A DNA stretch of 64,000 nt from assembly GCA_963662455.3 (NCBI GenBank), contig OZ224042.1:2446953-2510952 (forward strand), in the 5' to 3' direction. The translations under genes and the position numbers were made by a program. The notes below the pieces were generated by a model. The model was not told where the DNA came from. It made no database searches and saw only the letters and a program-made list of their open reading frames with translations. The number at the start of each line of letters is the position of its first letter. Position 1 is the stretch's first letter. Origin of the DNA: Acidimicrobiales bacterium (GTDB taxonomy: Bacteria > Actinomycetota > Acidimicrobiia > Acidimicrobiales > Aldehydirespiratoraceae). Shown here piece by piece: positions 17,057 to 39,852 of this stretch.

Positions 17057-17147
17057 TTGTGATGTGTCAAGACATGTGCAAGTGCTGGCGAGCTTGGGAC
17101 CATGGCGACGATGATCGGAAGCACCGCCCTCACTCGCCAGCAGCGGG

Positions 17148-18431
17148 TTACGGGCCGAGCGCGGTGATGGGTGCGACGGTGACGCCGTCGGGTCGCTGGT
17201 AGGCGGCGGTGCCGAACGCGGTCACGATGAGGTGTGCCGCAGGAGGCAGTCTGCGAGAGGTGTCGATGCTGCGGGTCGCGGCCAGCAGCTTCGCAGCGGC
17301 TTGGTCCAGCATCTGTTCGTTGCCGCCGAGCTTGACTTCCACGGCGACCCACCGTCCGTCGCGTGCCTCGAGCACGGCATCGAGCTCGCCGCCGCGCTGG
17401 GCTTGGTGATGGAACACCGCGACGTCGCCGGCCTCGCAGTACACACGCAGGTCGCGCACGGCCAGCGATTCGAACAGCAGACCCAGCGAACGCATGTCGC
17501 GGGCGAGCCGGTCAGGCCCTATCCCGAGCGCGGCGGCCGCGAGCGACGGATCAGCCAGGTGCCGCTTCGGCGACTGACGGGCCGGGCGCCCCGATGCCAT
17601 GTGCGGCGACCACGCCGGGAGATCGTCGAGAACGAAGAGGCGCTCGAGGGCGTCGAGGTAGCGGCTGACCGTCTGGTGGTTCAGCCGTGCCCCGTCGCCG
17701 GCGGTGTCTCTCGCCAGCGATGCCTGGGAGGCGGTGGTGGACACGTTGCGTGCCAGCGACCGCAGCAGCCTTCTCACCTTCACCGGGTCATGGGAGGTCC
17801 CCGTCTCCGCTGGGAGGTCGACGCGTGCGGTCTCCTCCAGATACGCCACGAGCAGGTCCTGGCCGGCCTCCGCAGCCAGCCCGACATGGCGGGGCCATCC
17901 ACCCCGGCAGATCAACTCCGCAAGGCGCCGGGCGTCGATCTGCGGAGCGAGCGCGGCAGCAGCCTCTCCCGCGAGCAGGCCGGCCACCGATACCTGCCCG
18001 GTGGCATAGCCCAGTTCGTGAAGCGACATGGGGCGAAGCCGAATGCGCATGAGGCGGCCGGCTCCTGAGTGGCGGGTTACGGCATCCGCCCGCGAGTAGG
18101 AACCGGTGAAGATGAACTTGCCCGTGGCGGCGTCCAGGTCGGAAATGCCCCGGGCGGCGTCCCAGACCTCGGGTGCGCGCTGCCACTCGTCGACGAGCTT
18201 GGGCCGATCGCCGTCCAGCAGCACCTCACGGGTGATCGTGCGGGCCGCACTGAGAGCGTTGGCGTCCTCGGCCAGCATCATCTTGCTGCGAGACCGGCTC
18301 AGCCCGAGCCACGTCTTGCCGCACCCCTTGGCGCCTTCGATGAGGACCATCGGCGCCGTGCTGAGCGCCCGGTCCAAGCGCGTGCCGGCGATGCGAGCGA
18401 CGTAGCCGTCTGGCTTGAGGAGATCTGCCAT
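17148..18431 (-). CDS. AAA-type ATP-binding protein of the AAA_14/DUF4143 architecture
   Basis: 427 aa. Walker A-like GAKGCGKTW. The C-terminal region (GGELDAVLE...RWVAVEVKLG) resembles the restriction-endonuclease-like DUF4143 module. Confidence 0.8.
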   Translation of the reverse strand: MADLLKPDGYVARIAGTRLDRALSTAPMVLIEGAKGCGKTWLGLSRSRSKMMLAEDANALSAARTITREVLLDGDRPKLVDEWQRAPEVWDAARGISDLDAATGKFIFTGSYSRADAVTRHSGAGRLMRIRLRPMSLHELGYATGQVSVAGLLAGEAAAALAPQIDARRLAELICRGGWPRHVGLAAEAGQDLLVAYLEETARVDLPAETGTSHDPVKVRRLLRSLARNVSTTASQASLARDTAGDGARLNHQTVSRYLDALERLFVLDDLPAWSPHMASGRPARQSPKRHLADPSLAAAALGIGPDRLARDMRSLGLLFESLAVRDLRVYCEAGDVAVFHHQAQRGGELDAVLEARDGRWVAVEVKLGGNEQMLDQAAAKLLAATRSIDTSRRLPPAAHLIVTAFGTAAYQRPDGVTVAPITALGP

Positions 18432-18470
18432 CGCCGTCCTTCGCTGACCCTGTCATGTCGGGCCGACCGG

Positions 18471-18525
18471 TGAATGTAGCACTTTACACCATTTGAATGT
18501 AGCAGATTCCCCACTCTGAATGTAG
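18471..18525. promoter_or_regulatory. three phased direct repeats TGAATGTAG(CA) with exact 23-bp spacing, 40-95 nt upstream of the DUF4143 ATPase start
   Basis: Copies lie at 18471-18479, 18494-18502 and 18517-18525. The region looks AT-richer than its surroundings. Confidence 0.4.
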
Positions 18526-18628
18526 TGTCTGCACGCCGAGATCCAAGGGAGCTACGCCAGTTCCGAGAGCCATCTGATACAGATGGCCGATTTCATCGCC
18601 CACTCGGGTTCGTGTTGGTTGTTGCGGC

Positions 18629-18916
18629 TTAGAGGTAGGAGTCGAGGGCGTCTCGGATGACTTGGCTCTCGGTGGTCTCGTCGGAAGCTGCCCGCTGCTT
18701 GATCCGGCTCTTGTAGCTGTGGGGAGCGCGGAATGTGTACACCTCGGCCCGTGTCTCTCCGATTCTCGGTGAGCGGCGCCGCGTCCGCTTGACCTCGGCG
18801 AGTTCGTCGGGCGCGAACTCGCGCCCCTCGAAGTCCGTGGCGATGGCCTCTATCTCATCGCCGGTCAAGGTCCTGTCGGTCGACCCGTGCCGGTAGGCCG
18901 ACTCGAATATCTGCAC
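18629..18916 (-). CDS. ribbon-helix-helix (CopG/antitoxin-like) protein, no adjacent toxin
   Basis: 95 aa. The C-terminal YTFRAPHSYKSRIKQRAASDETTESQVIRDALDSYL fits the RHH strand-helix-helix pattern. Confidence 0.6.
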   Translation of the reverse strand: MQIFESAYRHGSTDRTLTGDEIEAIATDFEGREFAPDELAEVKRTRRRSPRIGETRAEVYTFRAPHSYKSRIKQRAASDETTESQVIRDALDSYL

Positions 18917-19329
18917 CGCTTAAGCGTAACACGTTTAAGGACGGTTTGAGTCCACGTTTAGATTCCAAGTGTTTTTATTGGATTCCGAGGCATAGTGAGC
19001 TTGTCATCGACACTTCCCCCAAGGTTTGTCCCCACGATTGACAGGACGCCACTCAGCATCCGCGGCTACCCCTAAAAGCACGATGAGCCCCGATGAAGGG
19101 GGCTCTCGCAAGCCACTCTCGTGGCTCAGGCCATCGAAACGAGCACTTGGTGCTCCGATGACCTCAACACGCAGGGTACACGAAATATCGCCACAAACGC
19201 TAGTCCCTTGAACGAATCTGACTCCACCCCTGCGACGTTTCCTAAGTCCGACTCACCTGTTTCCTATGTCCTGACGCAGCACACGCCCACCCGACGTTCT
19301 TTGGGCATCTGGGTTCGTAGGGTTGGGGG

Positions 19330-19734
19330 ATGGATCTTGCGGAGATGCGACGACGAGTCTCAGAAGCCCGGTCGGGAGTTCTGAGCACAATCACGACCCA
19401 AGGGCGACCCCATGCGGTGCCGTGCTGCTTCGTGCTGGACGGCGAAGTGGTGTATTCGGCGGTTGACGCCAAACCGAAGTCAACTCTGGCGCTGCGCCGG
19501 CTGGACAACCTCGAAGCCCATCGGCATGCCTGCCTGCTGGTGGACTACTACGACGACGACTGGTCGGAACTCTGGTGGATACGCCTGGACTGCCACGGAC
19601 GGGTGCTCGCCGACGGCGACGAGCGTGAGCGGGCGTTGGACTTGTTGGCCGTTGAGTACCCGCAGTACCGCTCCACGCGACCCCCCGGCCCCGTGATCGC
19701 CCTAGACGTCACCAAATGGCGTTCCTGGCCATGA
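19330..19734 (+). CDS. PPOX-class (pyridoxamine 5'-phosphate oxidase fold), probable F420-dependent enzyme
   Basis: 134 aa. GVLSTITTQGRPHAVPCCFVLDGEVVYSAVD and WWIRLDCHGR are typical of the split-barrel PPOX family. Confidence 0.8.
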   Translation: MDLAEMRRRVSEARSGVLSTITTQGRPHAVPCCFVLDGEVVYSAVDAKPKSTLALRRLDNLEAHRHACLLVDYYDDDWSELWWIRLDCHGRVLADGDERERALDLLAVEYPQYRSTRPPGPVIALDVTKWRSWP

Positions 19735-19837: not shown

Positions 19838-20938
19838 ATGGGAAGAGAGAGCGAGCTCTTGGGGGCTCGCGTGGCCGCCACTCGACGCGATGCAGGCCTC
19901 ACACAAGAGGAGTGCGCGGCGCGCGTGGGGATTGCTCGCAGCGCCTTGGCCAAGGTCGAGACCGGCATGCGCGGTATCAACGCGATGGAGTTGGTCCGGC
20001 TCGCGCAAGCACTGGAGATGCGTGTCGAGTGGTTCTTCGAAGATGCCCCTCAGGCCGTGCTGTCGAGGCGAAACGCCGCAGAGCCGGGTGCTCCCAGTCC
20101 GAGCGTGGACCTCTTCACCGAACGGATCACGCGGGAAGTCGAGTTCCTCCAGCGATTAGGTGAGCTTGAGTTGGCTGAAACACCCGCAATCGCGTTCCCC
20201 AAGACATCCGAGGAAGCCGAGCAAGCAGCGGCCAAGACGCGACGGCAGCTGGGATACGACCATGAAGAGCCCGCGACCGCACTGGACACGCGTGCATCTG
20301 ATTTAGGTCTGCTCACCTTCTCTTGGGAGTTCGGCGAGAGCGGAGCCGATGGGGCATCCGTCTTGTTGACCTGCGGGGGTGTGGCGGTTGTCAACGGCAG
20401 CTTCGGGACCGGCCGCCGACGCTTGACGCTCGCCCACGAGTTGGGCCACTACGTCTTTGGTGACGAGTATTCCACGGACTGGCGTGTGGCCGAAGCCCCT
20501 GCTGCTAGAAAGGAGGGCCGCATAGACTGGTTCGCGCGTGCATTACTCCTGCCGGCTGCGGCGTTGCGGGACCGCTGGAGCGGAGGCGATGACACCCGCG
20601 TCAACGCGGTGCGCTTGGCCAGCGAATACCGTGTGGACATGTCGACCCTGGCACGGCGGCTGCAAGAACTGGGGATCGCGTCACCCCAGGAGGCGGCAGT
20701 GGTACGCACAACGAGTACGCGTCAATCCGACATAGTCGAACTCGATTTGATCGTCGCCGACGAACTCTTACCGCCGTCGTTGCCTGATACCTATATGAAG
20801 GCGGTGCTCAACCTGTATCGCCGTGAGGAGATCTCTGCCGCCCGCGCCCTGGATCTTCTGTTGGATACTTGGCAAGAGGACGACCTCCCCGACCTTCCCC
20901 CGCTTCCCGCCGACGCTGTCTGGTCATTCGTGTCCTGA
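19838..20938 (+). CDS. XRE-family HTH fused to an ImmA/IrrE (M78) zinc metallopeptidase domain
   Basis: 366 aa. The N-terminal HTH is RRDAGLTQEECAARVGIARSALAKVETGMRGI. The HEXXH motif lies in LAHELGHYVFGDEY. Confidence 0.85.
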   Translation: MGRESELLGARVAATRRDAGLTQEECAARVGIARSALAKVETGMRGINAMELVRLAQALEMRVEWFFEDAPQAVLSRRNAAEPGAPSPSVDLFTERITREVEFLQRLGELELAETPAIAFPKTSEEAEQAAAKTRRQLGYDHEEPATALDTRASDLGLLTFSWEFGESGADGASVLLTCGGVAVVNGSFGTGRRRLTLAHELGHYVFGDEYSTDWRVAEAPAARKEGRIDWFARALLLPAAALRDRWSGGDDTRVNAVRLASEYRVDMSTLARRLQELGIASPQEAAVVRTTSTRQSDIVELDLIVADELLPPSLPDTYMKAVLNLYRREEISAARALDLLLDTWQEDDLPDLPPLPADAVWSFVS

Positions 20939-20962: not shown

Positions 20963-21499
20963 ATGGACGCCTTCGTGTTCGACGCCGGCCCGCTGGCGCA
21001 CTTCGCGCGTGCGGGTTGGCTCGGCGTACTCAAATCACTGGTCGGTTCAAGCCGAGTCATCATTCCCGAAGAGGTCGTTTCGGAACTCAAATCGGCGGCA
21101 CGCTACGAGCACGCCATGGCGGCGGTGCTCGACGCAACCTGGATCGAACACCATGAGCTACGCACCGAAGCGGAGTTGTCTGCGTTCGGGAAGTTCGCCT
21201 CCCAACTCGTATCCGGGGAACGTAACGTGGGCGAGACGGCAGTGCTGGCAATTGCCGCGACAATGCCAGCGCAGGCGGTATTGGACGATTCCGTCGCCCA
21301 CAAGGTCGCGCAGAAAGCAGGACTCTCCTGCAAGCGCACCCTCGCTCTACTCTGTGAGGCAGTCCATGACGGCCTGTTGACGGCTGAACTCGTCAGCGAC
21401 ATAGCCGATGACCTCATCGAGACCGAATACCGGCTTCCGTTCGCCCCCGGCGAATTCATCCGATGGGCAGCCTCGCAAGGCCTCCTTCCTCCACAGTGA
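20963..21499 (+). CDS. PIN-domain protein (DUF3368-like predicted nuclease)
   Basis: 178 aa. FVFDAGPL...VIIPEEVVSEL...GETAVLAIA...AVLDDSVAHKVAQKAGL places the acidic residues in PIN-like order. It starts 24 nt after the XRE-ImmA gene. Confidence 0.7.
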   Translation: MDAFVFDAGPLAHFARAGWLGVLKSLVGSSRVIIPEEVVSELKSAARYEHAMAAVLDATWIEHHELRTEAELSAFGKFASQLVSGERNVGETAVLAIAATMPAQAVLDDSVAHKVAQKAGLSCKRTLALLCEAVHDGLLTAELVSDIADDLIETEYRLPFAPGEFIRWAASQGLLPPQ

Positions 21500-21581: not shown

Positions 21582-22304
21582 CTAGCTCGGCAACGAGGCG
21601 AGCTGGTCGTCAGTTAGAAACAAGAAACGTCTGAGCAGACCGCTGAGCCTCTTACCTTCGCCCTGGGCTGGCCCCAGCGTCCACAACCTGACCAGGAATC
21701 GTGCCACTCGTTGCAGGATCGCGGTCTGAGTCGCCGCAAGGTGCGGATACCAGCGTCGGCTCCACTGCGCAGGGTCGGACTGCATGAGTTGGAACCACTC
21801 TGGGTCTTCCTCGTGGATCGCCTTCTCCAGCGTGTCCCACCTACGCATCGGGTCATCTGCTTGTGAGGAACTGTCGAGCAACACATTGAGGTTGTGGTAG
21901 CGCCCTCCGGCACCGAACTCCCCGAAGATATCGAGCATCTCTCTCAGATGCTTGTCCGAGGCACAGAAGTCAATGTCAGCCTGGAGCGCTGGTCTCTGCA
22001 TCAGGTCCATGTCGGCCCTTGCCTTGGCGAGAACGTCGTCAAGCAGCGGCAGAAGACGATGGCCGTACTGCTTCTTGAAAGCCTTCGAGGAGGGGTGGCC
22101 ACCTTCGGCGTAGAGGATCAGCGTCATAGTCAGCTTCAACAGTCGCTCGAAGCCTTGCGACAGGGAGAACAGGCCACGAATCCTGTTGTCTTCGCCACCG
22201 TCCCATTCCGCGATGGAGCGGATGCCCTCATCCAAGAGAGTGATAGCCGTCTCGGTCTCCTCGATCAGGGAGAAGCGCTGGTCGGTGGTCAAAGCGCTCT
22301 GCAC
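21582..22304 (-). CDS. hypothetical protein (alpha-helical; possible HEPN-like)
   Basis: 240 aa with normal composition. It contains YGHRLLPLL and an R-x4-H string (RRWYPH). No firm family assignment. Confidence 0.55.
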   Translation of the reverse strand: MQSALTTDQRFSLIEETETAITLLDEGIRSIAEWDGGEDNRIRGLFSLSQGFERLLKLTMTLILYAEGGHPSSKAFKKQYGHRLLPLLDDVLAKARADMDLMQRPALQADIDFCASDKHLREMLDIFGEFGAGGRYHNLNVLLDSSSQADDPMRRWDTLEKAIHEEDPEWFQLMQSDPAQWSRRWYPHLAATQTAILQRVARFLVRLWTLGPAQGEGKRLSGLLRRFLFLTDDQLASLPS

Positions 22305-22666: not shown

Positions 22667-23236
22667 ATGTCATATATTTTGGCTGAGCAACCTCTTCCCA
22701 CCCGGCGACGCATCGACTTCGCATCGGTGACTGGGTTCTTGAGCGCCACCGCGGGACTCATCGCGCTCATCGTCGAGATAAACGTTCGCGGCTGGTGGGG
22801 ATTGGCGATCTCGTGGGTGGACATGCTCGTCTTGGTTGTATGGCTCAGCCTGACAGGATGGCTCTCCAGCTGGGCGTTCGATAACGCCGAGGGTTGGTGG
22901 CACATACCCTCCTTCCTGGGTGCCGCAGCGTCGGTGATCGGTCTGGCGTTTCTCTTGGTGCTTGCTGTCATGTGGCTCGTCTCCGAGCACCCGGACATCC
23001 TCAACGATGACTCTAAGCAGAAGCGGAACGGCCAAAGGAACAGACGACGGCGAACAACAAGCTCGCGGCGACGACCCTCAGCCCCAGAAACACTCACGGG
23101 CGCCGCACTATGGTTTCTGCTGGCAACAGTTGCAGCAGTGGTGCTGCTGGTGCTTGGTGTGCTCGATGGCCTCTCTGCTTGGGCAGGTGAAGTCCTAGCT
23201 GACCTTGTTGTAGGTTTGCTCGAACAACATCAGTGA
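22667..23236 (+). CDS. hypothetical integral membrane protein (about 4-5 TM segments, Arg-rich loop)
   Basis: 189 aa. Hydrophobic segments include FLSATAGLIALIV, LVLVVWLSLTGWL, AAASVIGLAFLLVLAVMWLV and ALWFLLATVAAVVLLVLGVL. Confidence 0.6.
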   Translation: MSYILAEQPLPTRRRIDFASVTGFLSATAGLIALIVEINVRGWWGLAISWVDMLVLVVWLSLTGWLSSWAFDNAEGWWHIPSFLGAAASVIGLAFLLVLAVMWLVSEHPDILNDDSKQKRNGQRNRRRRTTSSRRRPSAPETLTGAALWFLLATVAAVVLLVLGVLDGLSAWAGEVLADLVVGLLEQHQ

Positions 23237-26275: not shown

Positions 26276-26579
26276 TGACTCCGGTCACGCGTGCGAGCAT
26301 TCCTGTGTGAATCGTGGTCTCGGTCACGGGGGTTCTCCACCTGCACTTTCTGCTGGTTTCAGGTTAACGACCTCGACTGACAAATTACAGCGTTGAAAGT
26401 ACTCGTCGTCCGAGTCCGTTTGCTCGGCGTTGGCCTCCTCCCGCCTCGCGTCGATGACCGGGCAGGACATGGCCGTAGGTTGAAGGCAAAGGCGATCACT
26501 TCGACGAGGACGAGTGAGCGCAGATGGCAATGGCATGTGGGCCGAACCCGGCGTCACACGGCAGCGTTATGGTGGGGTG

Positions 26580-31851: not shown

Positions 31852-34800
31852 CACGCTGCTCCTTGCTCGGCGGGCTTTGGATGTTCGGCTCGGGCCACTC
31901 TGATCGCGGCGCTCAGATCCGCTGACAGGCCCTCGGGCTCGTCCAGTTCCACGAACGACCATCGCCGCAACCACATCGGTAACTGCAGCGATGACTGCAC
32001 TGCCGGTATCCACCGGTTCGTGATGGACTGTTTCTTGCGTTCGCTCTGGTCATCGGGCACGCCTTTGCACTCGATGATGAGATGCACAGCGTCGGCGTCC
32101 TCGTGTTCTGCAAAGAGGCGGGCCACAAAATCGGGTTCGTATCGGTGCCAGGTGCCTTCCCACAGGTAGGGAACGCTCCAATCGAGCCGGAAGTTGCGTG
32201 CCCAACTGGTCACGTCAGGGTGTTTGTCAAGCGCTCTGGCACAGGCCGCTTCAAAGTGCGAGTGGCAGGCCGCGATGTTCAGTTCCGAGTTCTTGGTGAT
32301 GTGGCGATCCGAGAGGCTGGTCTCATACCTGACGCTGGAAGTGTCCAACACTGCCGGATGCGCGAACGCTGCTACAAGCCGGTCTTGTGCGCCGTCCGTG
32401 GTCTCGCACGCGTCGTCTATCTCCTTGACGGCCTGGTCCAAGTTGCTTGACCCGAGTCCGTCGTAGTGAAATTCGTTGACCTCTGCAAGAAATGTCCAGA
32501 GCCTGACGATTCTGATGGCGTCGTAGAACAACAACCGTCGTCGCGCGCGCCACCCCTCGCCGTCGTCGGCCATCCTTTGGCTCCAGCGTCGCACGAGCCC
32601 GGCAGCGAGCCGGGTGCGGGTCTGCTGCTCACGCATGTTCGCTTCCGCACTGATGGTCCTGGTGTCTCCGACCGTCCCTGCCAGCACAGCTTCCTTGGCT
32701 CCGCGCGGCACCCATTCAATGACCCGCTCGGGGTTCAGCTGGAACCCGCCGGCTCCGGGTTCTGTGAGGTACTGCTCCACGTTGGGGAACTCGATTCGAT
32801 GGTTGCGTCGTCCAGAGACGCTGTGAACCCAATACCGGGGTTTCGGCGGTTCAGGGCTGTCTCCAGGGTGTTTGACCGGCATGAAATCAAACGGAACGCC
32901 GATGACCTCTGCATACTCCGCGACAAGCCTGCCTTCGTCGTCGTAGTTGTCATAGTTGGAGCGTCGCAGAGCACGGCCCGTGACCTGCTCGCACAACAAT
33001 TGCGTGGAGAACGCCCGGTATCCGAGGATGTGGGTGACGGTGCGGGTGTCCCATCCCTCCGTGAGCATCTGGACTGACACCACGCAACGAATGTGCTCAC
33101 CGAGACCCCCCGGCCTACCGACCGAGTTCAACGCGCCGCGCACGATGTCGCGGTCATCACGGTCGTCGCCGGGGAGCTTCAACCGGCCGGCTTGTGCCTT
33201 GACGGCTCCGCTGAGGCTGGCCTCCCCTTCAAGCTGGGAATGGACCAACAACGTGTGGACGCGTTCAGTCGGACCGTCGGCACGGTAGTTGGCGAACAGA
33301 TCACAGGCTCCCTCGTGATGCTCAAGTGAGCCATCGGGGCGCTTCTCCGACCATCCCGCGATGTGATCCGCGACAGCACTGGCATTGGCGATGTTGTTGG
33401 CCACCACGATGAATACCGGAGGTGTGGGCATCGTCTTGTCCGGATCATCCGGATGCATCCACTGGTTGAACTTCTGTTCATAACTGTTGTACAGCGCGGT
33501 GAGCGCACGGTTCAGTTCGGCCGGCACCGCACCGCGTCTGACGGTCTTGGGAGTCGTACTGGCGTAGAGGTTGCGCCACTTGACGCGCTCGCTCGCGGAA
33601 TCATCATCGACGGGCACCTGCGGAATCTTGACCAGACCGGATTCGATGCTGTCCATCAGCGGGAAGTCCGAGACCACCCAGGGGAACATCCGCTCCCGGC
33701 GGTCAGTGCCCTCAATAAAGATCGGCGTGGCGGAGAAGTCATAGACCGGGCCGAGCCGTTCCGCGTCGCGTAATCCCTCCAGAGCTCCAAACCAGATCGC
33801 TGCAGCCTTGACATCGTCGTCTTCTGCTGTGCGCCGACCGGCTTCGGGCAGATAGCAGTGGTGAGCTTCGTCGTTCAGCACGCACACCTTCGGTGCGCCC
33901 TGCCCCGTCGGGAACCCACGCAGCACCCGGTCGAGAACCGCCGACATGGATTCAAGCTCCGGGGTCCTCCCAGCTCGCAGCAGCTTCTTGGCGTCGCTCG
34001 ACGCAGCAGACAGCCGGTCCCGTCGCTGGAACGCTTGGAAGTTCAACACCTGGACCTTGACCGCTCCCAGCGCGCTGCGTTTGCTCTCCGGCAGCAACCG
34101 CATCTCGTCATAGACGTTCTCGGGGTGCGCCGGACGCAGCACCGCGAGACGCTCGCGGACAGTATGACCCGGAGTGATCGCCAAGAAGCAGGTGGTGTAT
34201 CGCCCATCACGGCGCTGCGACGCGGCCGCGTTGACGGCGTGCCAGGCAATGACCATACCCATCACCGCGGTCTTCCCCGTACCGGTGGCCATCCTCACCG
34301 CGAGACGGCTGATATCGCTGTTGTAGTCTCGGTTCGCCTCCGCCAAGTCTCGTCGAACGCCAGCGAGCACCCTGTCCCGGCTTGCGTTGGCCTCGGTCAG
34401 CCAGATGAGGGTCTCGGCCGCCTCCACCTGCGCGAAGAACAGCCTCGGGTCGTTGGCCTCGCTACGCCAATGCCACAAGAGTTGTCTCGTCGCGGAAGTC
34501 GCCCCCGGATAGTTCGCGTTCCTCCACCCCGACACTGCATCACGGATGCGGTTCACCAGCTCGTTCTGCTCCGCCGCGGTCCCCGTCCCCTGCATCCGCA
34601 ACTGCGTACCCCGCTCCTTGGGCACAATCACGAGCGCCTGGCTCAGCCGCCTCCCTTCGATCGCCACTCCCGTGGACGTATTGTCCTCCGCCAACTCCCA
34701 GTGACGCGAAGGCTCCTCATGAGGCCGATTCAGAACCGGTTGGCTGACATGGTCCAACGGCCGTGCAGCCGGCGCCAGGTTGCCTCTCTCCGCGGCCACC

Positions 34801-35039
34801 GAAACGTCGTCAACCGAGTCACCTGCAGTCGCCTCCGAGGTCACCGGGCTACACCGTCCGTCACGTTGCTGAATGGGGAAGTCGAACTCGCACAACGCGC
34901 TACAGGCTAGTAGCAGCCCGTGACACCGTGCGTGGTTTCGCCCTGCTGTAGTTACCGACAGGTCCACTTGGCCTCTTCGGTCGCAGACGACGCACTCGTG
35001 ACCGTCAACCGGTACGACTGACATCGCAACCCGCTTCAA
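31851..35039 (-). CDS. type III restriction Res-like SF2 helicase with C-terminal PD-(D/E)xK nuclease; true start probably ~34757-34799
   Basis: MATGTGKTAVMG (motif I), VLNDEAHHC (DEAH), TEGWDTRTV...QVTGRALRR (motif VI). The C-terminal YEPDFVAR...HLIIECKG is the nuclease motif. The family-typical N-terminus PVLNRPHEEPSRHWE begins ~95 codons into the ORF. Confidence 0.85.
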   Translation of the reverse strand: MKRVAMSVVPVDGHECVVCDRRGQVDLSVTTAGRNHARCHGLLLACSALCEFDFPIQQRDGRCSPVTSEATAGDSVDDVSVAAERGNLAPAARPLDHVSQPVLNRPHEEPSRHWELAEDNTSTGVAIEGRRLSQALVIVPKERGTQLRMQGTGTAAEQNELVNRIRDAVSGWRNANYPGATSATRQLLWHWRSEANDPRLFFAQVEAAETLIWLTEANASRDRVLAGVRRDLAEANRDYNSDISRLAVRMATGTGKTAVMGMVIAWHAVNAAASQRRDGRYTTCFLAITPGHTVRERLAVLRPAHPENVYDEMRLLPESKRSALGAVKVQVLNFQAFQRRDRLSAASSDAKKLLRAGRTPELESMSAVLDRVLRGFPTGQGAPKVCVLNDEAHHCYLPEAGRRTAEDDDVKAAAIWFGALEGLRDAERLGPVYDFSATPIFIEGTDRRERMFPWVVSDFPLMDSIESGLVKIPQVPVDDDSASERVKWRNLYASTTPKTVRRGAVPAELNRALTALYNSYEQKFNQWMHPDDPDKTMPTPPVFIVVANNIANASAVADHIAGWSEKRPDGSLEHHEGACDLFANYRADGPTERVHTLLVHSQLEGEASLSGAVKAQAGRLKLPGDDRDDRDIVRGALNSVGRPGGLGEHIRCVVSVQMLTEGWDTRTVTHILGYRAFSTQLLCEQVTGRALRRSNYDNYDDEGRLVAEYAEVIGVPFDFMPVKHPGDSPEPPKPRYWVHSVSGRRNHRIEFPNVEQYLTEPGAGGFQLNPERVIEWVPRGAKEAVLAGTVGDTRTISAEANMREQQTRTRLAAGLVRRWSQRMADDGEGWRARRRLLFYDAIRIVRLWTFLAEVNEFHYDGLGSSNLDQAVKEIDDACETTDGAQDRLVAAFAHPAVLDTSSVRYETSLSDRHITKNSELNIAACHSHFEAACARALDKHPDVTSWARNFRLDWSVPYLWEGTWHRYEPDFVARLFAEHEDADAVHLIIECKGVPDDQSERKKQSITNRWIPAVQSSLQLPMWLRRWSFVELDEPEGLSADLSAAIRVARAEHPKPAEQGAA

Positions 35040-35362
35040 AAACTTGCGTCGAGCGGCCCCACCTAAGCAGCAACAACCTCACCGGACACGTCAACGCACC
35101 CGCCTACGTTTCCGACGCTTCACCCGCTACCGAATCCGAGCGTTGCCTTATGCCGGCAAACCTCACTGGTGACCGCTCAACTCGCCGCGCATCTCCGAAA
35201 ACCCCAAACCCTCATCGGTCGTTGTCACACCTGACTCGTACATTCCTGGTATGCGAGTACGACAGTCGCGGGACCATCAAATGACTTCGACCACCTGCTA
35301 TCGTTGCTGGATGCCGACTCTCCGCGACAACGCAAGTCGGCTTGTGTCAGCGCCTCCACACG

Positions 35363-37909
35363 ATGATGACTGCTAACAGGCTCACCGAAGCTTTCCGAGA
35401 GCTGGGCTATGAGAAAGCGCTGTGCCAGCGTCGCGTAGGTTCCCCTGCCAGCAAGGTAGTCGCCGATGTCGTGGCGTTCACCCAAGACGCCCCCCAAGAC
35501 CTACGAACTAGTGCGATAGCTGGCTTCACCGCCCCTGGAGACGATATCAGTGAGTTGCTGAGTGCCGCGCGTCTGTTGGCCACACCGTTTGCCTTGATCG
35601 AGCGGTTAAACGGCACTCTCGACTTGTATGAAGTCAAGTCAACGGGAGAATCGCCAAGCCGAATCCGAGGGCCGATCGCGCCAGCGCAGATTCGTGAATT
35701 GAGAAGTTCCAAGCTGGCAACCGAACTTGCTCCGAGGGCAATCCGCGCAGCCAAAGCGGGAATGCGCCAGTTGACGCTGTTCCCGATAGATGCGAGGCTG
35801 CTCGTAGAGGCACGCAGCAAATCAGTGGATTCGATTAGTGCGCGGATGAAACACTCGTTCCACCACGCGTTGGAGGAGAAGATTCAGCCTACGAGCGCAG
35901 CAAGACTCGTGATCGAGTCCCTTGCCGCGGCAATCGTCCGAGACAAGTACCAGCTAGAGCGCATCACTGGCGGCCGTATCGTTGATGGTGTATTGACACG
36001 GCACGGCGAGTATTTTGAAAACCTCGCAAGGTGGCAGAGCAAGCACCCTGAACTGGTTGAATCGACACTCCGCGAACTTGGGGACAACGTGGACTACTCG
36101 GCAATCGATGCGCGCACGATCAACGCTGTTTACGAGGAACTCTTTCTTACGTCGGAGCTACGCAGTGAATTTGGTATCTATCACACGGATCAACGGTTTG
36201 CATCGCGGATTCTTGACCATCTGCCGATCGAGGAAATCCCACCCGAAGATCGGTATGTCGTTGATCCTGCGTGCGGGGCGGGCAATCTCCTACTCGCCGC
36301 CCAAGAGCGGTTAGAGAACATTTCGCCAGGCCGATGGTCGGCCAGAACGACCCACGACTGGCTCAAGACCCACATGTACGGAGCGGATATTGAACCGATC
36401 GCGGTGGAGATCGCGAAGCTCTCTCTCTTAGTCTCGTCGTTGCCCCTGGGGAACTCATGGCAGATAGAACAGCGGGATTCCCTTGAGGAAACCCCCTGCT
36501 TTGGGTCGCCTCCTACGATCTGGGTGACTAATCCACCTTGGCAGCAGTCCCTGGGCTCAAATGACGAGCGGGCAATCCGGTTTCTTGACAGTGCCATCGG
36601 CCAGCTAGCTGATGGGGGATTGCTGGCGTGCATTCTACCCGCCTCTTGGTTGAGCTCAACTGGGCACAAGAAGTCGCGACTTGACGTCGACCGGAGATGC
36701 AGCGTGTTCGAGGTGTGGAGGCTACCCAGAGACCTGTTTCGCGAAGCCCGCCACCCATCCGCAGTGGTTTTTGCACAGAAACTGAGGACCGTCCAGCGCT
36801 CGAACTTTGCGTTCCGCTGGGTGACCGCATCCAAGGCGCACCGGGAGTCATTTCTCGACAGGGGTGCCGCGCAGTTCCAGTCCACCGAAATCCCTCCACT
36901 ACGTCGGGCGTTCACAGGCGGCCCCGTCGACGTTCTCGCAGCGTCAGGCATCACCGTGGAGAAAGTCGCGATTGTGACGTCAGGCCAGGTGCAAACTGGT
37001 AAGCCGTGTCCCGTTCCTTCGGGTGAGGGTACACCCGTCCTCGCACGCGGCACAAAGGCGCCGATCCACCGTTCCATCGGGCGTGAGTTGATCACCTGGG
37101 TGGCCGACCCAAGGGACAACTTCCGACTCGCTGATGGATGGGAGACCATCCTGGATGACAGTCCGAAACTGCTCGTTCAAGCCAACCGATTTCAGGACAA
37201 CGCTTGGCGGCTACGTCCGATCCTCGACACAACCGGAGTCCTCCCTTCCAACTCATGGCAGACGCTCTCTGGCAAACCGCAGACCATATGGGCGCTCAAT
37301 GCATTTTTGTCCACATCAATCGCATCGTGTTTTGTTCATTCTCACTCAACAACCGGACGAATCCGTGTCGATTTGCTAGAAGAAATCCCACTGCCAGCCA
37401 AATGGACTCAGCACTACGAGAAATTGTTCGCGGTACTGGGAGAGCAAATGGCCGAACCGACATCGGACCTCGCATCACTGGTCGACAAGGCAGAACTGTT
37501 GGCGTACCAAGCGTTCGAATTGGATGACGCTATGAAAGCGTCGATCCAACGGGTCATGGCCGAATACAAGGCGCCTGACGGAAGAGTCCGTTTCCCCGAG
37601 GTTGTGGAACGCGAAATTGGAGATGCGCGCCTCGAACCGTTTAGTCAGGCCCCCGGTACGGTGCTAGGCGTCGAACGCACATCGGTCCAGGTATGGGTGC
37701 TCGGAGGGCCCGATGACGGTTACACCGTCGATCTGCACGAAGGCATACCCGGATGGCTTCTCAAAAAGGATGCAACATTCGAGTTGACCGGCCACCCGGA
37801 CACAGGGCGTTACCGGTTCCATCGGTCCGCCCATCTCTCAGACTACGTAGCACTTGGAATGCACAACGGCCTCGACCCGGCCACAAGTGAACGCTCGAAT
37901 CCGCAGTAA
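35363..37909 (+). CDS. large gamma-class N6-adenine methyltransferase of type IIG/IIL or BREX-PglX-like architecture
   Basis: About 848 aa from ATG 35363. Motif I is YVVDPACGAGNLLLAAQ. Motif IV is IWVTNPPWQQS. About 300 aa precede the MTase core, including a possible D...(D/E)xK (ADVVAF ... LDLYEVKS). About 450 aa follow it and are TRD-like. Confidence 0.8.
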   Translation: MMTANRLTEAFRELGYEKALCQRRVGSPASKVVADVVAFTQDAPQDLRTSAIAGFTAPGDDISELLSAARLLATPFALIERLNGTLDLYEVKSTGESPSRIRGPIAPAQIRELRSSKLATELAPRAIRAAKAGMRQLTLFPIDARLLVEARSKSVDSISARMKHSFHHALEEKIQPTSAARLVIESLAAAIVRDKYQLERITGGRIVDGVLTRHGEYFENLARWQSKHPELVESTLRELGDNVDYSAIDARTINAVYEELFLTSELRSEFGIYHTDQRFASRILDHLPIEEIPPEDRYVVDPACGAGNLLLAAQERLENISPGRWSARTTHDWLKTHMYGADIEPIAVEIAKLSLLVSSLPLGNSWQIEQRDSLEETPCFGSPPTIWVTNPPWQQSLGSNDERAIRFLDSAIGQLADGGLLACILPASWLSSTGHKKSRLDVDRRCSVFEVWRLPRDLFREARHPSAVVFAQKLRTVQRSNFAFRWVTASKAHRESFLDRGAAQFQSTEIPPLRRAFTGGPVDVLAASGITVEKVAIVTSGQVQTGKPCPVPSGEGTPVLARGTKAPIHRSIGRELITWVADPRDNFRLADGWETILDDSPKLLVQANRFQDNAWRLRPILDTTGVLPSNSWQTLSGKPQTIWALNAFLSTSIASCFVHSHSTTGRIRVDLLEEIPLPAKWTQHYEKLFAVLGEQMAEPTSDLASLVDKAELLAYQAFELDDAMKASIQRVMAEYKAPDGRVRFPEVVEREIGDARLEPFSQAPGTVLGVERTSVQVWVLGGPDDGYTVDLHEGIPGWLLKKDATFELTGHPDTGRYRFHRSAHLSDYVALGMHNGLDPATSERSNPQ

Positions 37910-37927
37910 CGACTTACGGTTCCTGAG

Positions 37928-38884
37928 ATGTCTTCGGAAGTCCATTTCCTCAATGTCGGCCAAGCCGATGCCATTGTTACCATCGATGCGGGGTCCGCCC
38001 TGATCGTTGATTGTCCACACGCCGGTGTCGACCCAGCAGCAAGAGTGCTCGACAAAATAGACCTTGCAGAGTTCGATATCGTAGTTACCCACCAAGATCT
38101 CGATCACTGCGGCGGAATCCATGAACTTCTTCGAAAATATGGGAACGCTTCGACGACCCTCTACATGAATCCTGTAGCCCGACCAATTCCACCGGGACCC
38201 AAAGTAAGGACCGCACTTCTGGGGATCCTGTCAGCACTCGACGAGATCGGTGGAACTACAGAGCACGCGTTTGCGGGCAGAGTCGGAAGTATCGGAGGGA
38301 TCGAATGGTCGGTGTTGTCACCGCCTTACATCGAGGTCTTGGACGCTGCCTTGCTCGGAAGCTCGGCTAATAGGATCAATAGGACAAGTGCTGTCTTGGC
38401 GCTACAAGTTGGAGAGTACAGGTTCCTCATTCCGGGCGACATAGACGACACGGCTGTGAACTGGTTGCTCACCTCTGGTGCACAGCTATCAGCCGATGCA
38501 CTTCTGCTTCCTCATCACGGAGCAAAGCTCAAATTGATCGACCGGCTTCTCGATGCAGTGAAACCCAAATACGTCGTAATCAGTTCGGGTCGTCGGAAGA
38601 CGCACCCAAACATCTCAACACTGATGGCAGCTGCGTCATACGGCTGCCGCCTCATGTGCACCCAGGCAACTTTCCACTGCAACCCAGATCCGGTGAAACC
38701 CGATCATTGCGCAGGATCCATCGTCTTCACTCTGAGAGGCAAGTCCCTCTCAGTGGATCCGACACCGGGGGACCACCGCTCGAGAATCCAACAACTAACC
38801 AGCCCAGTCTGCCTCCGAGCACAATCGGGGCCGCCTGCAACCGATGTGCACAGGGGTTCCAAAACCGGTGACACCACTCAATGA
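37928..38884 (+). CDS. ComEC/Rec2-type metallo-beta-lactamase-fold hydrolase (stand-alone)
   Basis: 318 aa. VHFLNVGQADAIVT...LIVDC, VVTHQDLDHCGG (a variant of HxHxDH), FLIPGDID, LLLPHHGAK, KYVVISSG....HPN. It starts 18 nt after the methyltransferase stop. Confidence 0.85.
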   Translation: MSSEVHFLNVGQADAIVTIDAGSALIVDCPHAGVDPAARVLDKIDLAEFDIVVTHQDLDHCGGIHELLRKYGNASTTLYMNPVARPIPPGPKVRTALLGILSALDEIGGTTEHAFAGRVGSIGGIEWSVLSPPYIEVLDAALLGSSANRINRTSAVLALQVGEYRFLIPGDIDDTAVNWLLTSGAQLSADALLLPHHGAKLKLIDRLLDAVKPKYVVISSGRRKTHPNISTLMAAASYGCRLMCTQATFHCNPDPVKPDHCAGSIVFTLRGKSLSVDPTPGDHRSRIQQLTSPVCLRAQSGPPATDVHRGSKTGDTTQ

Positions 38885-38948
38885 ACCGCCTGTTGCCCAG
38901 TTCCGCCATACCACAGACTCCCATCAAACAGAGACACTTCGAGTCTAG

Positions 38949-39690
38949 ATGACCATTCAGAAACTTGTTCGAGAGTCCGAAGTGCTCGTCGAGGTACTAG
39001 ACCCTGTGGTTGAGGGCATCTCCGACTTGCAGCTGCAGGGGATTGCTGATTCGGCCTGGTACCGCCTTGGATCGGTAAATTCCCTGGTCCGAGATCAGGG
39101 TGGCGGAGCATTGGCAGCCACGCTGGCTCGCGGTTTGATCGAGCAGGCCGCATACTGGGACTGGGCGATCGCCACGGAAGTTGGCACGGATGGTCTTGAC
39201 ATCTCCAGGCCAAGCCCTGAAGACACTGGTGAATGATGGCGCGCATCACCGAGACAAGATCTCAAAGAGCCTCCAATCCGACGGAGTGCCGCAAAACCTG
39301 ATCAACGACCTCCTCGGACCAGCTACAGAAATCCCCGTCCCTGAACACGGGACCCCATCTCTCCCGGCTATCACAGAATTGCTGAATCTCGGCTACTCGA
39401 ACGCGTCTGAGGTCCGATCTGCCCCTGCGATGCACAGCGTCCTATCGCAGTTCGTGCACGCTACTCCGATCTCCAATTGGCACATCCGTCGGGACATTTT
39501 TCCTACGCTTACAGCGCCCGCTTTCGCCATCTCTTTGGAGTCCGCAGCCCGCGGTTTCGAGAGGATCGCGTTGATCACTCTCCTCCTTGCGGGGGTCAGC
39601 CGTGAGACTCTCGATGAGCCACTAAACGCGTTGAGCGAACGATGCGCACAGATCACAACGCTTGCCGCGCTATACCACTTCCTCGGATAG
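38949..39690 (+). CDS. hypothetical protein; either one gene with a +1 frameshift near 39205 or two overlapping ORFs (38949-39236 and 39181/39190-39690)
   Basis: Both frames are open across 39139-39236. The N-part ends ...AYWDWAIATEVGTDGLDIS and the C-part continues ...QALKTLVNDGAHHRDKISKSL. No family is recognised. Confidence 0.45.
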
Positions 39691-39852
39691 AGAAGCCGCA
39701 ACCGAATGGGTTCCGGAATTGCTGCAAAGACTTCAGCGTCAAATCGAACTCGGTCATGCACGCAAGACTCCGTGGCTGCATATGAGCGCTGGATTCCCCA
39801 GGCCCCAGTGCTCGTTTCGACGGATTGGGGTGGGCTCTGGCAAGGTTGGGGG

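What the first reader, a model, noticed from the sequence alone, without database searches (positions are those of the whole stretch)
17057..39852. ~22.8-kb defence island inserted at the 3' side of tRNA-Ser(GGA), without a visible integrase
Core genes (dnaX, recR, SRP RNA, tRNA-Ser) stop at 17056. The next 22.8 kb hold a DUF4143 ATPase, an orphan RHH protein, XRE-ImmA plus PIN, an AAA+ pair, three restriction-modification-like modules and an MBL hydrolase. An SDR/BVMO catabolic cluster then starts at 39853. Several intergenic stretches look visibly AT-richer than the backbone. I found no integrase, transposase or direct repeat of the tRNA 3' end, so the island looks old or immobilised. Uncharacterised genes embedded in it (21582-26275, 37928-39690) are defence candidates by association.
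Basis: partly seen in the sequence, partly recalled or inferred. Interest (0 to 1): 0.6.

Follow-up and report, generated by a model that had tools for sequence, protein, structure and literature searches.

The report
Defence hotspot relocated beside tRNA-Ser
The stretch is a real cluster of anti-phage genes, but it fills a chromosomal slot that related species fill differently or leave empty, and it lies beside tRNA-Ser only because a 508-kb inversion moved it there, so it is an ordinary defence hotspot and not an inserted mobile island.

Summary
It holds a DUF4143 ATPase, an RHH gene, XRE-M78 plus a PIN-like gene, AAA plus DUF6414, three R-M-like modules and an MBL hydrolase.

It is not one island inserted at tRNA-Ser(GGA). 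In all nine complete genomes of the same genus the layout is tRNA-Pro(CGG), slot A, PNPOx, slot B, SDR-BVMO. That locus lies 340-510 kb from tRNA-Ser. Slot A ranges from 36 bp to 13 kb and slot B from empty to 22 kb, and both hold different defence genes in different species.

This genome has a 508-kb inversion centred on dnaA. Its crossover lies inside a 27-nt IS481-type terminal repeat that directly follows both tRNAs.

Cargo genes are 85-98% identical at four-fold degenerate sites between species, against 45-62% for backbone genes. PNPOx and SDR are intermediate. This points to cassette exchange by homologous recombination in the flanks.

GC content is not anomalous. Two genes are pseudogenes. 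AAA plus DUF6414 is Dodola-like, and the 855-aa methyltransferase plus MBL is a conserved unnamed pair.

By-product: the IS481-family element inserts 0-4 nt after tRNA or tmRNA genes in 20 of 29 copies checked.

The parts
16969..17056 (+). tRNA-Ser(GGA), the left neighbour in this genome only
   Evidence: ARAGORN. In relatives its 3' flank holds other DNA, equal to G000 C1:2.953-2.967 Mb.
17060..17086 (+). Solo 27-nt terminal inverted repeat of an IS481-family IS (TGATGTGTCAAGACATGTGCAAGTG core). It holds the crossover point of the 508-kb inversion.
   Evidence: The identical 27 nt follow tRNA-Pro(CGG) and the tmRNA gene in G000. Sequence on either side swaps partners relative to G006, G012 and G015.
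17148..18431 (-). Slot A cargo: DUF4143/AAA_14 ATPase (PADLOC candidate PDC-S01)
   Evidence: Pfam 1.6e-30 and PADLOC 3.1e-62. Present in 3 of 9 congeners at 95-97% nt identity and 0.87-0.95 four-fold-site identity.
18629..18916 (-). Slot A cargo: 95-aa RHH/CopG-like protein
   Evidence: The C-terminal strand-helix-helix is read from the translation. There is no Pfam hit. It is 95-96% nt identical in G001, G006, G014 and G017, at different places.
19052..19213 (.). 160-nt non-coding element rich in hairpins. It is conserved at 86-91% at other loci in congeners.
   Evidence: query 1996-2157. No Rfam hit at E<=1. Function unknown.
19330..19734 (+). PNPOx-family gene: conserved backbone gene that separates slot A from slot B
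   Evidence: Pfam PF01243, 1.1e-12. Present in 9 of 9 congeners next to tRNA-Pro.
19838..20938 (+). Slot B: XRE HTH + M78 (ImmA/IrrE) peptidase fusion, RmrA-like
   Evidence: Pfam and PADLOC RmrA 3e-17. Present in 4 of 9 congeners without the PIN-like partner.
20963..21499 (+). Slot B: PIN-like DUF3368 protein (PDC-S70), probable toxin or effector partner
   Evidence: PADLOC 3.4e-20. All 99 homologues carry precomputed PF11848. Absent at this locus in all 9 congeners.
21582..22304 (-). Slot B: 240-aa all-helical protein of unknown fold, restricted to Acidimicrobiia
   Evidence: 92 homologues. AF2 pLDDT 92.9. No PDB fold match, best E 0.41. Homologues sit beside DISARM-like and MTase/HATPase genes.
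22667..23560 (+). Slot B: 189-aa four-TM membrane protein plus a 103-aa protein. The latter is the gene that usually abuts SDR in congeners.
   Evidence: Hydropathy. tblastn synteny. No family hits.
23709..26275 (-). Slot B: Dodola-like pair. Classical AAA ATPase (25094-26275) overlaps by ATGA the DUF6414 protein (23709-25097).
   Evidence: Pfam DUF6414 5.7e-45 and AAA 3e-45. The pair is adjacent in 78 of 80 loci across phyla. DUF6414 plus a ClpB-like protein equals Dodola.
26580..28826 (+). Slot B: decayed type II R-M. REase pseudogene (26580-27235, 1-nt frameshift near 26819-26825) plus intact N6A MTase (~27213-28826).
   Evidence: Both REase halves lie in one ORF in G012, L062 and L107. MTase_II 2.2e-125.
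29284..35039 (-). Slot B: type III R-M. Mod is 29284-32013 and Res is 31851-35039.
   Evidence: MTase_III 4.4e-147. Res has only weak hits, ResIII 2e-4 and REase_III 1.6e-6. Four-fold-site identity to G001 and G012 is 0.97 for Res; Mod is 0.85 to G001 and 0.62 to G012.
35342..38884 (+). Slot B: 855-aa gamma-class N6A MTase (35342-37909) plus a ComEC-type MBL hydrolase (37928-38884). This is a conserved unnamed two-gene module.
   Evidence: The pair is stop/start-coupled in 3 of 3 unrelated contigs. Absent at this locus in the 9 congeners.
38910..39690 (+). Slot B: deletion pseudogene of a ~560-aa unknown gene. It keeps residues 34-130 and 400-561.
   Evidence: tblastn with the G012 orthologue. 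The allele on contig C3 is split by an insertion (~2.0 kb extra in C3) that carries a multi-copy 1.18-kb IS encoding a 375-aa transposase (family not tested).
39813..39852 (+). Right edge of slot B: conserved 40-nt SDR upstream region (CGTTTCGACGG...CTCTGGCAAGGTTG). The SDR ATG is at 39853.
   Evidence: Comparison of empty sites (G004, G008) and filled sites (G006, G015).

Best explanation
Window 17057-39812 is the filled state of a genus-wide defence-gene hotspot, not a single integrated element.

Layout:
- The ancestral layout is tRNA-Pro(CGG), slot A, PNPOx, slot B, SDR-BVMO operon.
- Slot A here is 17057-19329 and holds the DUF4143 ATPase and the RHH gene.
- Slot B here is 19735-39812, about 20.1 kb. 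It holds an XRE-M78/PIN-like pair, three unknown genes, a Dodola-like AAA+DUF6414 pair, a decayed type II R-M, a type III R-M, an N6A-MTase+MBL pair and a gene remnant.

Turnover (inferred):
- Cassettes enter and leave by homologous recombination in the conserved flanking genes after DNA transfer between related species.
- No element-encoded recombinase is needed.

Relocation:
- In this genome the whole locus was carried to tRNA-Ser(GGA) by a ~508-kb inversion centred on the replication origin.
- The crossover lies in a 27-nt IS481-type terminal repeat that stood directly 3' of both tRNA genes in inverted orientation.

Status of each step:
- Shown: the synteny, the empty sites, the sequence swap at the junctions, and the contrast in synonymous-site identity.
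- Inferred: the recombination mechanism of cassette exchange, whether RecA or the transposase made the inversion, and the anti-phage activity of every module.
For: Position in relatives:
- 9 of 9 complete congeners have tRNA-Pro(CGG) upstream of PNPOx and SDR-BVMO downstream.
- Slot A ranges from 36 bp (G011) to 13 kb (G014). Slot B ranges from empty (G004, G008; PNPOx stop to SDR ATG is 54-60 nt) to ~22 kb (G012).

Other cargo in the same slots:
- G011 slot B has a C5 MTase plus a HATPase-type REase.
- G014 slot A has a KAP NTPase, RloB+AAA_21 and an MTase-HNH fusion.

Four-fold-site identity between G000 and congeners:
- Backbone genes: 0.45-0.62.
- Cargo: MT2 0.95-0.98, Res 0.97, DUF4143 0.87-0.95, RHH 0.90-0.92.
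- Flanking PNPOx and SDR: 0.66-0.79 in genomes that carry cargo, but 0.52-0.68 in the empty-site genomes.

Inversion:
- DNA upstream of DUF4143 in G006, G012 and G015 equals G000 C1:2,972,015-2,979,240.
- DNA downstream of tRNA-Ser in G006 and G015 equals G000 C1:2.953-2.967 Mb.
- Both G000 junctions carry the identical 27 nt, and the distal sequences swap partners.
- The inverted segment is 2,464,008-2,972,047. Its midpoint is 2.718 Mb, dnaA is at 2.733 Mb, and the cumulative GC-skew minimum is at 2.68-2.70 Mb.

No mobility signature:
- No integrase, no tRNA-derived direct repeat and no significant repeats lie inside the stretch.
Against:
- The assembly also contains contigs of a second strain, although none covers the junction.
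- Twenty-seven nt is short for RecA-mediated exchange.
- Flank identity is elevated but could partly reflect gene-specific constraint.
- No direct evidence of recombination tracts, such as breakpoints, was sought.
- Defence function rests on family membership only. Several genes have no assignable function and two are pseudogenes.
- The framework is not found outside this genus, so the age of the hotspot is unknown.
Confidence: 0.8

Rival explanations
1. A single ~22.8-kb genomic island integrated site-specifically into the 3' end of tRNA-Ser(GGA). It later lost its integrase and att repeat.
For: The stretch starts 1 nt after a tRNA 3' end, on the expected side. It is accessory and rich in defence genes.
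Against: - A conserved PNPOx gene lies inside it.
- 9 of 9 congeners have the same framework at tRNA-Pro(CGG), not tRNA-Ser.
- There is no tRNA-Ser repeat.
- The tRNA-Ser junction is a recombinant IS end whose partner junction is found 508 kb away.
- Modules occur independently in different combinations in relatives.
Confidence: 0.04
2. The tRNA-Ser adjacency is an assembly artefact or a minority arrangement. The true chromosome keeps the tRNA-Pro-DUF4143 order, and the contig was mis-joined at the repeated IS end.
For: - The assembly is a mixture of two strains. C2-C7 are colinear with C1 at 82-99% identity, and CheckM contamination is 9.7%.
- The repeat is present at several tRNA loci.
- Reads could not be examined.
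Against: - The shared sequence is only 27-60 nt, far below read length.
- A mis-join would need two reciprocal errors 508 kb apart.
- GC skew is smooth across both junctions and the inversion is symmetric about dnaA. This is the pattern expected of real, tolerated inversions.
Confidence: 0.08
3. The cassettes are moved by the tRNA-targeting IS481-family element itself, as a composite or one-ended transposition, rather than by homologous recombination in the flanks.
For: - IS ends stand at the tRNA side of slot A in G000, G006, G012 and G015.
- The IS is active in the genus, with up to 10 copies per genome.
- DUF4143 and RHH copies are near-identical at several unlinked sites.
Against: - No second IS end bounds slot A or slot B.
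- Slot B begins after PNPOx, 2.7 kb from the IS end.
- The only full copy in G000 is a compact 1.26-kb IS without passengers.
- Elevated flank identity fits homologous exchange.
Confidence: 0.1

Closest known systems
Defence islands and integration hotspots between conserved core genes (Makarova et al. 2011; Oliveira et al. 2017; Hochhauser et al. 2023; cited from my own knowledge)
   Same: - The stretch is a dense mix of R-M, toxin-antitoxin-like and newer defence systems.
- Content differs between close relatives at one fixed chromosomal position.
- Empty sites exist.
- No recombinase lies in the cargo.
- Cargo is much younger than the flanks.
   Different: - It lies in an uncultured Acidimicrobiales genus.
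- It has two slots split by one conserved gene.
- The whole hotspot changed its tRNA neighbour through an origin-centred inversion.
tRNA-linked genomic islands integrated by tyrosine integrases
   Same: The variable DNA starts directly 3' of a tRNA gene. Ancestrally that gene is tRNA-Pro(CGG), and here it is tRNA-Ser(GGA).
   Different: - There is no integrase.
- There is no duplicated tRNA 3' end.
- It is not a single unit.
- The element that abuts the tRNAs is a DDE (rve) IS481-family insertion sequence.
Dodola (DolA/DolB; Millman et al. 2022; described in bioRxiv 10.1101/2024.10.26.620412 and PMC11514479)
   Same: It is a two-gene operon of a DUF6414 protein and an AAA+ ATPase, and the pairing is tightly conserved (78 of 80 loci).
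   Different: - The ATPase is a classical-clade AAA (PF00004; Cdc48/FtsH/PAN-like, IetA-like in PADLOC) rather than ClpB-like.
- One search listed no Dodola family for either protein: the DUF6414 protein matched no PADLOC family and the AAA matched IetA, TRIP13 and mad8. I did not confirm that this PADLOC version includes Dodola models.
- It is untested experimentally.
Type III restriction-modification (Mod/Res)
   Same: There is a strong type III Mod match (4e-147). The adjacent, overlapping 1062-aa partner has a ResIII helicase motif and a weak C-terminal REase_III match.
   Different: The Res assignment is weak (E 2e-4 and 1.6e-6) and no solved homologue was found.
Type IIG / BREX PglX / MADS MAD2-type N6A methyltransferases, and MBL effectors of Avs1 and Lamassu variants
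   Same: The 855-aa protein has the gamma-class N6A MTase core. The partner is a ComEC-type MBL hydrolase, like the nuclease effectors attached to other defence systems.
   Different: - All family matches lie far below the curated cut-offs: PglX 33 bits against 400, MAD2 22 against 720, Avs1a 36 against 420.
- No PD-(D/E)xK, BREX or MADS partner genes are present.
- The two-gene MTase+MBL module has no name in PADLOC 2.0 or NCBIfam 20.

Membership tests
tRNA-integrated genomic island | Site-specific recombinase (integrase) encoded at one end | tested here: not met
   Pfam and PADLOC on all ORFs in 17057-39852 found none.
tRNA-integrated genomic island | Direct repeat of the tRNA 3' end at the far boundary | tested here: not met
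   The 25-nt tRNA-Ser 3' end, allowing up to 3 mismatches, occurs once in the window. The repeat scan found nothing.
tRNA-integrated genomic island | Presence/absence polymorphism of the block at the same tRNA in relatives | tested here: not met
   The framework follows tRNA-Pro(CGG) in 9 of 9 congeners. tRNA-Ser(GGA) has other DNA downstream.
Defence island / integration hotspot | Several recognised defence systems clustered together | tested here: met
   PADLOC matches: PDC-S01, RmrA-like, PDC-S70, IetA-like AAA, MTase_II, MTase_III with REase_III, and mad2-like MTase with MBL. Pfam adds DUF6414.
Defence island / integration hotspot | Variable cargo between the same conserved flanking genes in related genomes, including empty sites | tested here: met
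   PNPOx and SDR flank 0-22 kb in 10 genomes. G004 and G008 are empty.
Defence island / integration hotspot | Cargo acquired horizontally, so younger than the flanks | tested here: met
   Four-fold-site identity is 0.85-0.98 for cargo and 0.45-0.62 for backbone.
Defence island / integration hotspot | Atypical base composition | tested here: not met
   Slot B is 60.2% GC, the 26th percentile. GC3 z is within +/-1 for most genes. This feature is not essential when donors are close relatives.
Dodola | DUF6414 protein (DolA) | tested here: met
   PF19952, 5.7e-45, 154.7 bits against a cut-off of 25.
Dodola | ClpB-like ATPase partner (DolB) in the same operon | tested here: inconclusive
   An AAA+ ATPase is coupled by an ATGA overlap and co-occurs in 78 of 80 loci. 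However, it is PF00004 classical AAA. AAA_2 scores only 1e-4, and the best PADLOC hit is IetA.
Dodola | Protection against phage | not testable with these tools
   This needs cloning and plaque assays.
Type III R-M | Mod methyltransferase | tested here: met
   PDLC03632 4.4e-147 and PF01555 5.5e-27.
Type III R-M | Res subunit: SF2 helicase plus endonuclease | tested here: inconclusive
   ResIII 2.3e-4, below the cut-off. REase_III 1.6e-6 at the C-terminus. No PDB relative.
Rosmer (RmrT/RmrA) | XRE + M78 peptidase antitoxin-like RmrA | tested here: met
   Multiple RmrA models match, with the best E 3e-17.
Rosmer (RmrT/RmrA) | RmrT toxin partner | tested here: not met
   The partner is a DUF3368 PIN-like protein that matches PDC-S70, not RmrT.
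IS481 family insertion sequence (the boundary repeat) | rve-type DDE transposase with an N-terminal HTH, bounded by terminal inverted repeats | tested here: met
   The full copy at C1:2,970,785-2,972,044 matches rve_3 2.6e-17, HTH_32 and LZ_Tnp_IS481. IRL and IRR were aligned by eye. Window 17060-17086 equals IRR.

The most novel reading that the evidence does not exclude
The repeat at the tRNA edge belongs to an IS481-family insertion sequence that recognises the T-arm and 3' end of tRNA and tmRNA genes.

Evidence for the targeting:
- It inserts 0-4 nt after the gene, with its transposase gene converging on the tRNA.
- All six copies or remnants in this genome follow a tRNA or tmRNA.
- 20 of 29 copies checked across the genus also follow one, and at least 11 different tRNAs are involved.
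- Several of the remaining copies follow GGTTCRA-like pseudo-T-arms at the same spacing.

Proposed consequence:
- Such an element would scatter identical short repeats next to many tRNA genes.
- It would so create integrase-free variable regions at tRNA 3' ends.
- It would also provide portable crossover sites for large origin-symmetric inversions that shuffle defence hotspots between tRNAs.
Probability: 0.55. Interest if true: 0.6.

Novelty: new member of a known kind. Interest (0 to 1): 0.4.

Why it matters
- The case shows that 'island next to a tRNA without an integrase' can be misleading. Here the tRNA neighbour is an accident of an inversion, and the real unit is a recombination-fed hotspot defined by conserved flanking genes.
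- It gives exact empty-site coordinates in an uncultured Acidimicrobiales genus. Those coordinates can be used to harvest further defence candidates from metagenomes.
- It flags two conserved but unnamed or untested modules: a classical-AAA Dodola variant and an N6A-MTase+MBL pair. It also flags one protein family of unknown fold that keeps company with defence genes.
- It exposes an insertion sequence with apparent tRNA-end targeting.

Tried and rejected
- tRNA-Ser att repeat: none found.
- Compositional anomaly: none.
- RHH ORF as a fragment of the IS481 transposase: no similarity.
- The 160-nt hairpin element as a known RNA: no Rfam hit at E<=1.
- HEPN reading of the 240-aa protein: the confident model has no significant fold match. 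The HepT-type toxin in the MntA-HepT complex ranks only 23rd, at probability 0.30.
- '6A-MBL' as a name for the MTase+MBL pair: that system is ubiquitin-like and unrelated. The hit was 17 bits against a cut-off of 220.
- Close relatives of the MBL protein in genome contigs by single-sequence patterns: none. They were found instead through the protein database.
- ORF 26393-26797 ('u134'): this is a wrong-frame artefact over the real frameshifted REase.
- ORF 11966-13648 is not dnaX. It is a LapA/Calx-beta protein.
- Conservation of the framework in other genera of the family: the BVMO orthologues there lack PNPOx, SDR and tRNA-Pro neighbours.
- PDB sequence searches for Res and the PIN-like protein gave nothing.

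Full report
**1. What is there**

Left of the stretch, these core features are confirmed:
- tRNA-Ser(GGA) at 16969-17056 on the + strand.
- SRP RNA at 16799-16897 on the - strand.
- dnaX at 14949-16715 and recR at 14317-14952, both on the - strand.
- The ORF at 11966-13648 is not dnaX. It is a LapA/Calx-beta protein.

Pfam, PADLOC and NCBIfam give this gene list:

| Coordinates | Strand | Assignment |
|---|---|---|
| 17148-18431 | - | DUF4143/AAA_14 ATPase (PDC-S01) |
| 18629-18916 | - | 95-aa RHH-like protein |
| 19330-19734 | + | PNPOx-family enzyme |
| 19838-20938 | + | XRE HTH fused to an M78 peptidase (RmrA-like) |
| 20963-21499 | + | PIN-like DUF3368 protein (PDC-S70; homologues carry PF11848) |
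| 21582-22304 | - | 240-aa unknown |
| 22667-23236 | + | four-TM membrane protein |
| 23249-23560 | + | 103-aa unknown |
| 25094-26275 and 23709-25097 | - | classical AAA ATPase overlapping a DUF6414 protein |
| 26580-27235 | + | type II REase broken by a 1-nt frameshift |
| ~27213-28826 | + | its N6A MTase |
| 29284-35039 | - | type III Mod plus a weakly matching Res |
| 35342-37909 | + | 855-aa N6A MTase |
| 37928-38884 | + | ComEC-type MBL hydrolase |
| 38910-39690 | + | remnant of a ~560-aa gene |
| from 39853 | + | SDR |

**2. Comparison with relatives changes the picture**

The genome is an uncultured Acidimicrobiales (closest records). Seventeen species of the same genus are held. I cut out the tRNA-Ser locus and the homologous 'island' locus from nine complete congeners and mapped the window's proteins on them. 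tRNA scans are.

- All nine have the order tRNA-Pro(CGG), variable DNA, PNPOx, variable DNA, SDR-BVMO-FA hydroxylase-flavin reductase-hydantoinase.
- That locus lies about 340-510 kb from the dnaX-SRP-tRNA-Ser locus.

Slot A lies between tRNA-Pro and PNPOx:

| Genome | Slot A |
|---|---|
| G011 | 36 bp |
| G008, G017, G001 | 0.7-1.1 kb |
| G006, G012, G015 | DUF4143 gene |
| G004 | a different DUF4143 paralogue |
| G014 | 13 kb: KAP NTPase, RloB+AAA_21 and an MTase-HNH fusion |

Slot B lies between PNPOx and SDR:

| Genome | Slot B |
|---|---|
| G004, G008 | empty; PNPOx stop to SDR ATG is 54-60 nt |
| G006 | 1.4 kb |
| G015 | 1.6 kb |
| G017 | 2 kb |
| G011 | 5.7 kb: C5 MTase plus a HATPase-type REase |
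| G014 | 8 kb |
| G001 | 9 kb |
| G012 | 22 kb |
| this window | 20.1 kb |

- The insertion point is the 14-20 nt between the PNPOx stop codon and a conserved 40-nt SDR upstream region (window 39813-39852).
- Modules recur in different combinations. The PIN-like gene, the 240-aa gene, the Dodola-like pair and the MTase855+MBL pair are absent from this locus in all nine.
- The gene order is therefore not conserved, and the cargo is accessory. But the unit is a hotspot with two slots, not one element.

**3. Why tRNA-Ser?**

- DNA upstream of DUF4143 in G006, G012 and G015 matches G000 C1:2,972,015-2,979,240.
- DNA downstream of tRNA-Ser in G006 and G015 matches C1:2.953-2.967 Mb.
- At C1:2,972,047-2,972,121 lies tRNA-Pro(CGG) on the - strand.
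- Relative to all nine congeners, the 508 kb between the two tRNA 3' ends is therefore inverted.
- Both junctions in G000 carry the identical 27 nt TGTGATGTGTCAAGACATGTGCAAGTG just after the tRNA, and the sequences distal to it have swapped partners.
- The segment's midpoint is 2.718 Mb. dnaA is at 2.733 Mb and the cumulative GC-skew minimum is at 2.68-2.70 Mb.
- The inversion is thus symmetric about the origin and leaves skew undisturbed, as real tolerated inversions do.
- Reads could not be consulted, so a small doubt remains.

**4. The 27 nt are the end of an insertion sequence**

- A full 1.26-kb IS sits 2 nt after tRNA-Pro in G000. It encodes a 386-aa rve/HTH_32/LZ_Tnp_IS481 transposase, and the motif is its right terminal repeat.
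- Its right end also follows the tmRNA gene, tRNA-Arg, tRNA-Ser(CGA) and tRNA-Ser(GCT) in G000.
- Across the genus, 20 of 29 sampled copies abut the 3' end of a tRNA or tmRNA gene. These include Ser(GCT), Ser(GGA), Ser(CGA), Pro(GGG), Pro(CGG), Arg(CCT), Arg(TCT), Thr(TGT), Ala(GGC), Asn(GTT) and tmRNA.
- Several of the remaining copies are preceded by GGTTCRA-like sequences at the same spacing.
- The query contained no tRNA sequence.
- Two literature searches of the held library found no description of tRNA targeting in this IS family.
- This explains why identical short repeats stood next to both tRNAs in inverted orientation.
- Whether RecA or the transposase made the exchange is not known.

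**5. How the cargo turns over**

- No recombinase and no bounding repeats occur in the stretch.
- GC and GC3 are ordinary, which fits donors of similar composition.
- Four-fold degenerate sites are decisive:
  - Backbone genes (dnaX, BVMO, FAH, flavin reductase, hydantoinase) are 0.45-0.62 identical between G000 and the congeners.
  - MT2 is 0.95-0.98, Res 0.97, Mod 0.85 (G001), DUF4143 0.87-0.95, RHH 0.90-0.92 and XRE-M78 0.70-0.82.
  - The immediate flanks PNPOx and SDR are intermediate, at 0.66-0.79, in cargo-bearing genomes. They are lower in the empty-site genomes G004 and G008.
- Cassettes therefore moved between species long after the species diverged. The flanks were partly dragged along. 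That is the signature expected of replacement by homologous recombination in the flanking genes. This step is inferred.

The assembly itself shows ongoing change.
- Contigs C2-C7 are colinear with parts of C1 at 82-99% identity, so they are a second strain (contamination 9.7%).
- C3 is the allele of window 28669 onward:
  - It is 98.7% identical through Mod, Res, MTase855 and MBL.
  - An IS interrupts the ~560-aa gene that is deletion-truncated in C1.
  - It is 95% identical in SDR-BVMO and only 77-84% from FAH to the nitroreductase.
  - It lacks window 46850-50728 and 51704-55055.

**6. The embedded unknowns**

AAA plus DUF6414:
- The two genes are adjacent in 78 of 80 loci from Actinomycetota, Chloroflexota and Pseudomonadota.
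- DUF6414 plus a ClpB-like ATPase is the Dodola system.
- Here the ATPase is of the classical AAA clade. One search listed no Dodola family for either protein. I therefore call it Dodola-like.

MTase855 plus MBL:
- The pair is stop/start-coupled in three unrelated contigs with different neighbours.
- The MBL is ComEC-type (TIGR00361, 3e-15).
- The likeliest reading is a restriction-like pair in which the MBL protein is the nuclease. This is inferred only.

The 240-aa protein:
- It has 92 homologues confined to Acidimicrobiia.
- The all-helical model is confident, with pLDDT 92.9.
- It has no significant fold match.
- Its neighbours elsewhere are DISARM-like or MTase+HATPase genes.
- The HEPN idea is not supported.

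**7. Limits of the stretch**

Variability continues to the right.
- A helicase-DarT-ARH operon (46938-50718) and an RCC1/SLH protein (51576-54023) are present or absent among congeners and in C3.
- The former tRNA-Ser flank, now beside tRNA-Pro, carries a KAP NTPase, an HTH protein, a Dcm methylase and Hen1-Pnkp RNA repair genes.

**8. Verdict**

This is a real and well-populated defence hotspot of a known kind. Interest is moderate. The most original by-product is the apparent tRNA-end targeting of the IS481-family element and its role in an origin-symmetric inversion.

Noticed in passing
window 17060-17086; G000 C1:2,970,785-2,972,044; loci L138-L166: An IS481-family IS encodes a 386-aa rve transposase. 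Its right end lies 0-4 nt after tRNA or tmRNA genes in all 6 copies or remnants in this genome and in 20 of 29 copies sampled in the genus. Some of the rest follow GGTTCRA-like pseudo-T-arms. This suggests tRNA-end target specificity.
   Followed up: partly
G000 contigs C2-C7 (452 kb), e.g. C3 = window 28669 to beyond 64000: All small contigs are colinear with parts of C1 at 82-99% identity. They are alleles of a second co-assembled strain, not plasmids or duplications. C3 differs from C1 by an IS insertion, two indels (3.9 and 3.4 kb) and a 9-kb tract at only 77-84% identity.
   Followed up: partly
window 35342-38884; L131-L133: An 840-867-aa N6A methyltransferase and a ~300-aa ComEC-type MBL hydrolase form a translationally coupled pair in unrelated genomic contexts. 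No named system in PADLOC 2.0 or NCBIfam 20 fits.
   Followed up: partly
window 38910-39690; C3:24900-28300; L035:4571-6256: A ~560-aa gene without any family hit is inactivated twice. An 810-bp internal deletion truncates it in C1. In the second strain an insertion carrying a 375-aa transposase (a multi-copy 1.18-kb IS; family not tested) splits it at residue 282/283. It is intact in G012.
   Followed up: yes
window 26580-27235: A type II restriction endonuclease gene has a 1-nt frameshift near 26819-26825. It is intact in G012 and in two other Acidimicrobiales MAGs. The methyltransferase is kept.
   Followed up: yes
window 13288-13650: The 3' end of the LapA/Calx-beta ORF (11966-13648) is a ~350-bp sequence present in about 20 copies in the genome at 83-98% identity. 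GC and AT skew are very unusual there.
   Followed up: no
window 19052-19213: A 160-nt non-coding stretch rich in hairpins is conserved at 86-91% at a single, different locus in five congeners. There is no Rfam match. It could be a small RNA gene or a mobile remnant.
   Followed up: partly
G000 C1:2,962,000-2,972,000 (L049): The DNA now beside tRNA-Pro, formerly beside tRNA-Ser, is another variable region rich in defence genes. It holds a KAP NTPase, an XRE-type HTH protein, a Dcm C5 methylase and the Hen1-Pnkp RNA repair pair.
   Followed up: partly
window 46938-50718 and 51576-54958: A UvrD-like helicase-DarT-ADP-ribosylglycohydrolase operon and an RCC1-repeat/SLH protein are further presence/absence insertions in the conserved metabolic cluster to the right of the reported stretch.
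   Followed up: partly
window 23709-28826; L062, L107; G002:C59, G010:C364: The Dodola-like pair and the type II R-M module lie side by side in several other Acidimicrobiales genomes too, as if they travel as one larger block.
   Followed up: no
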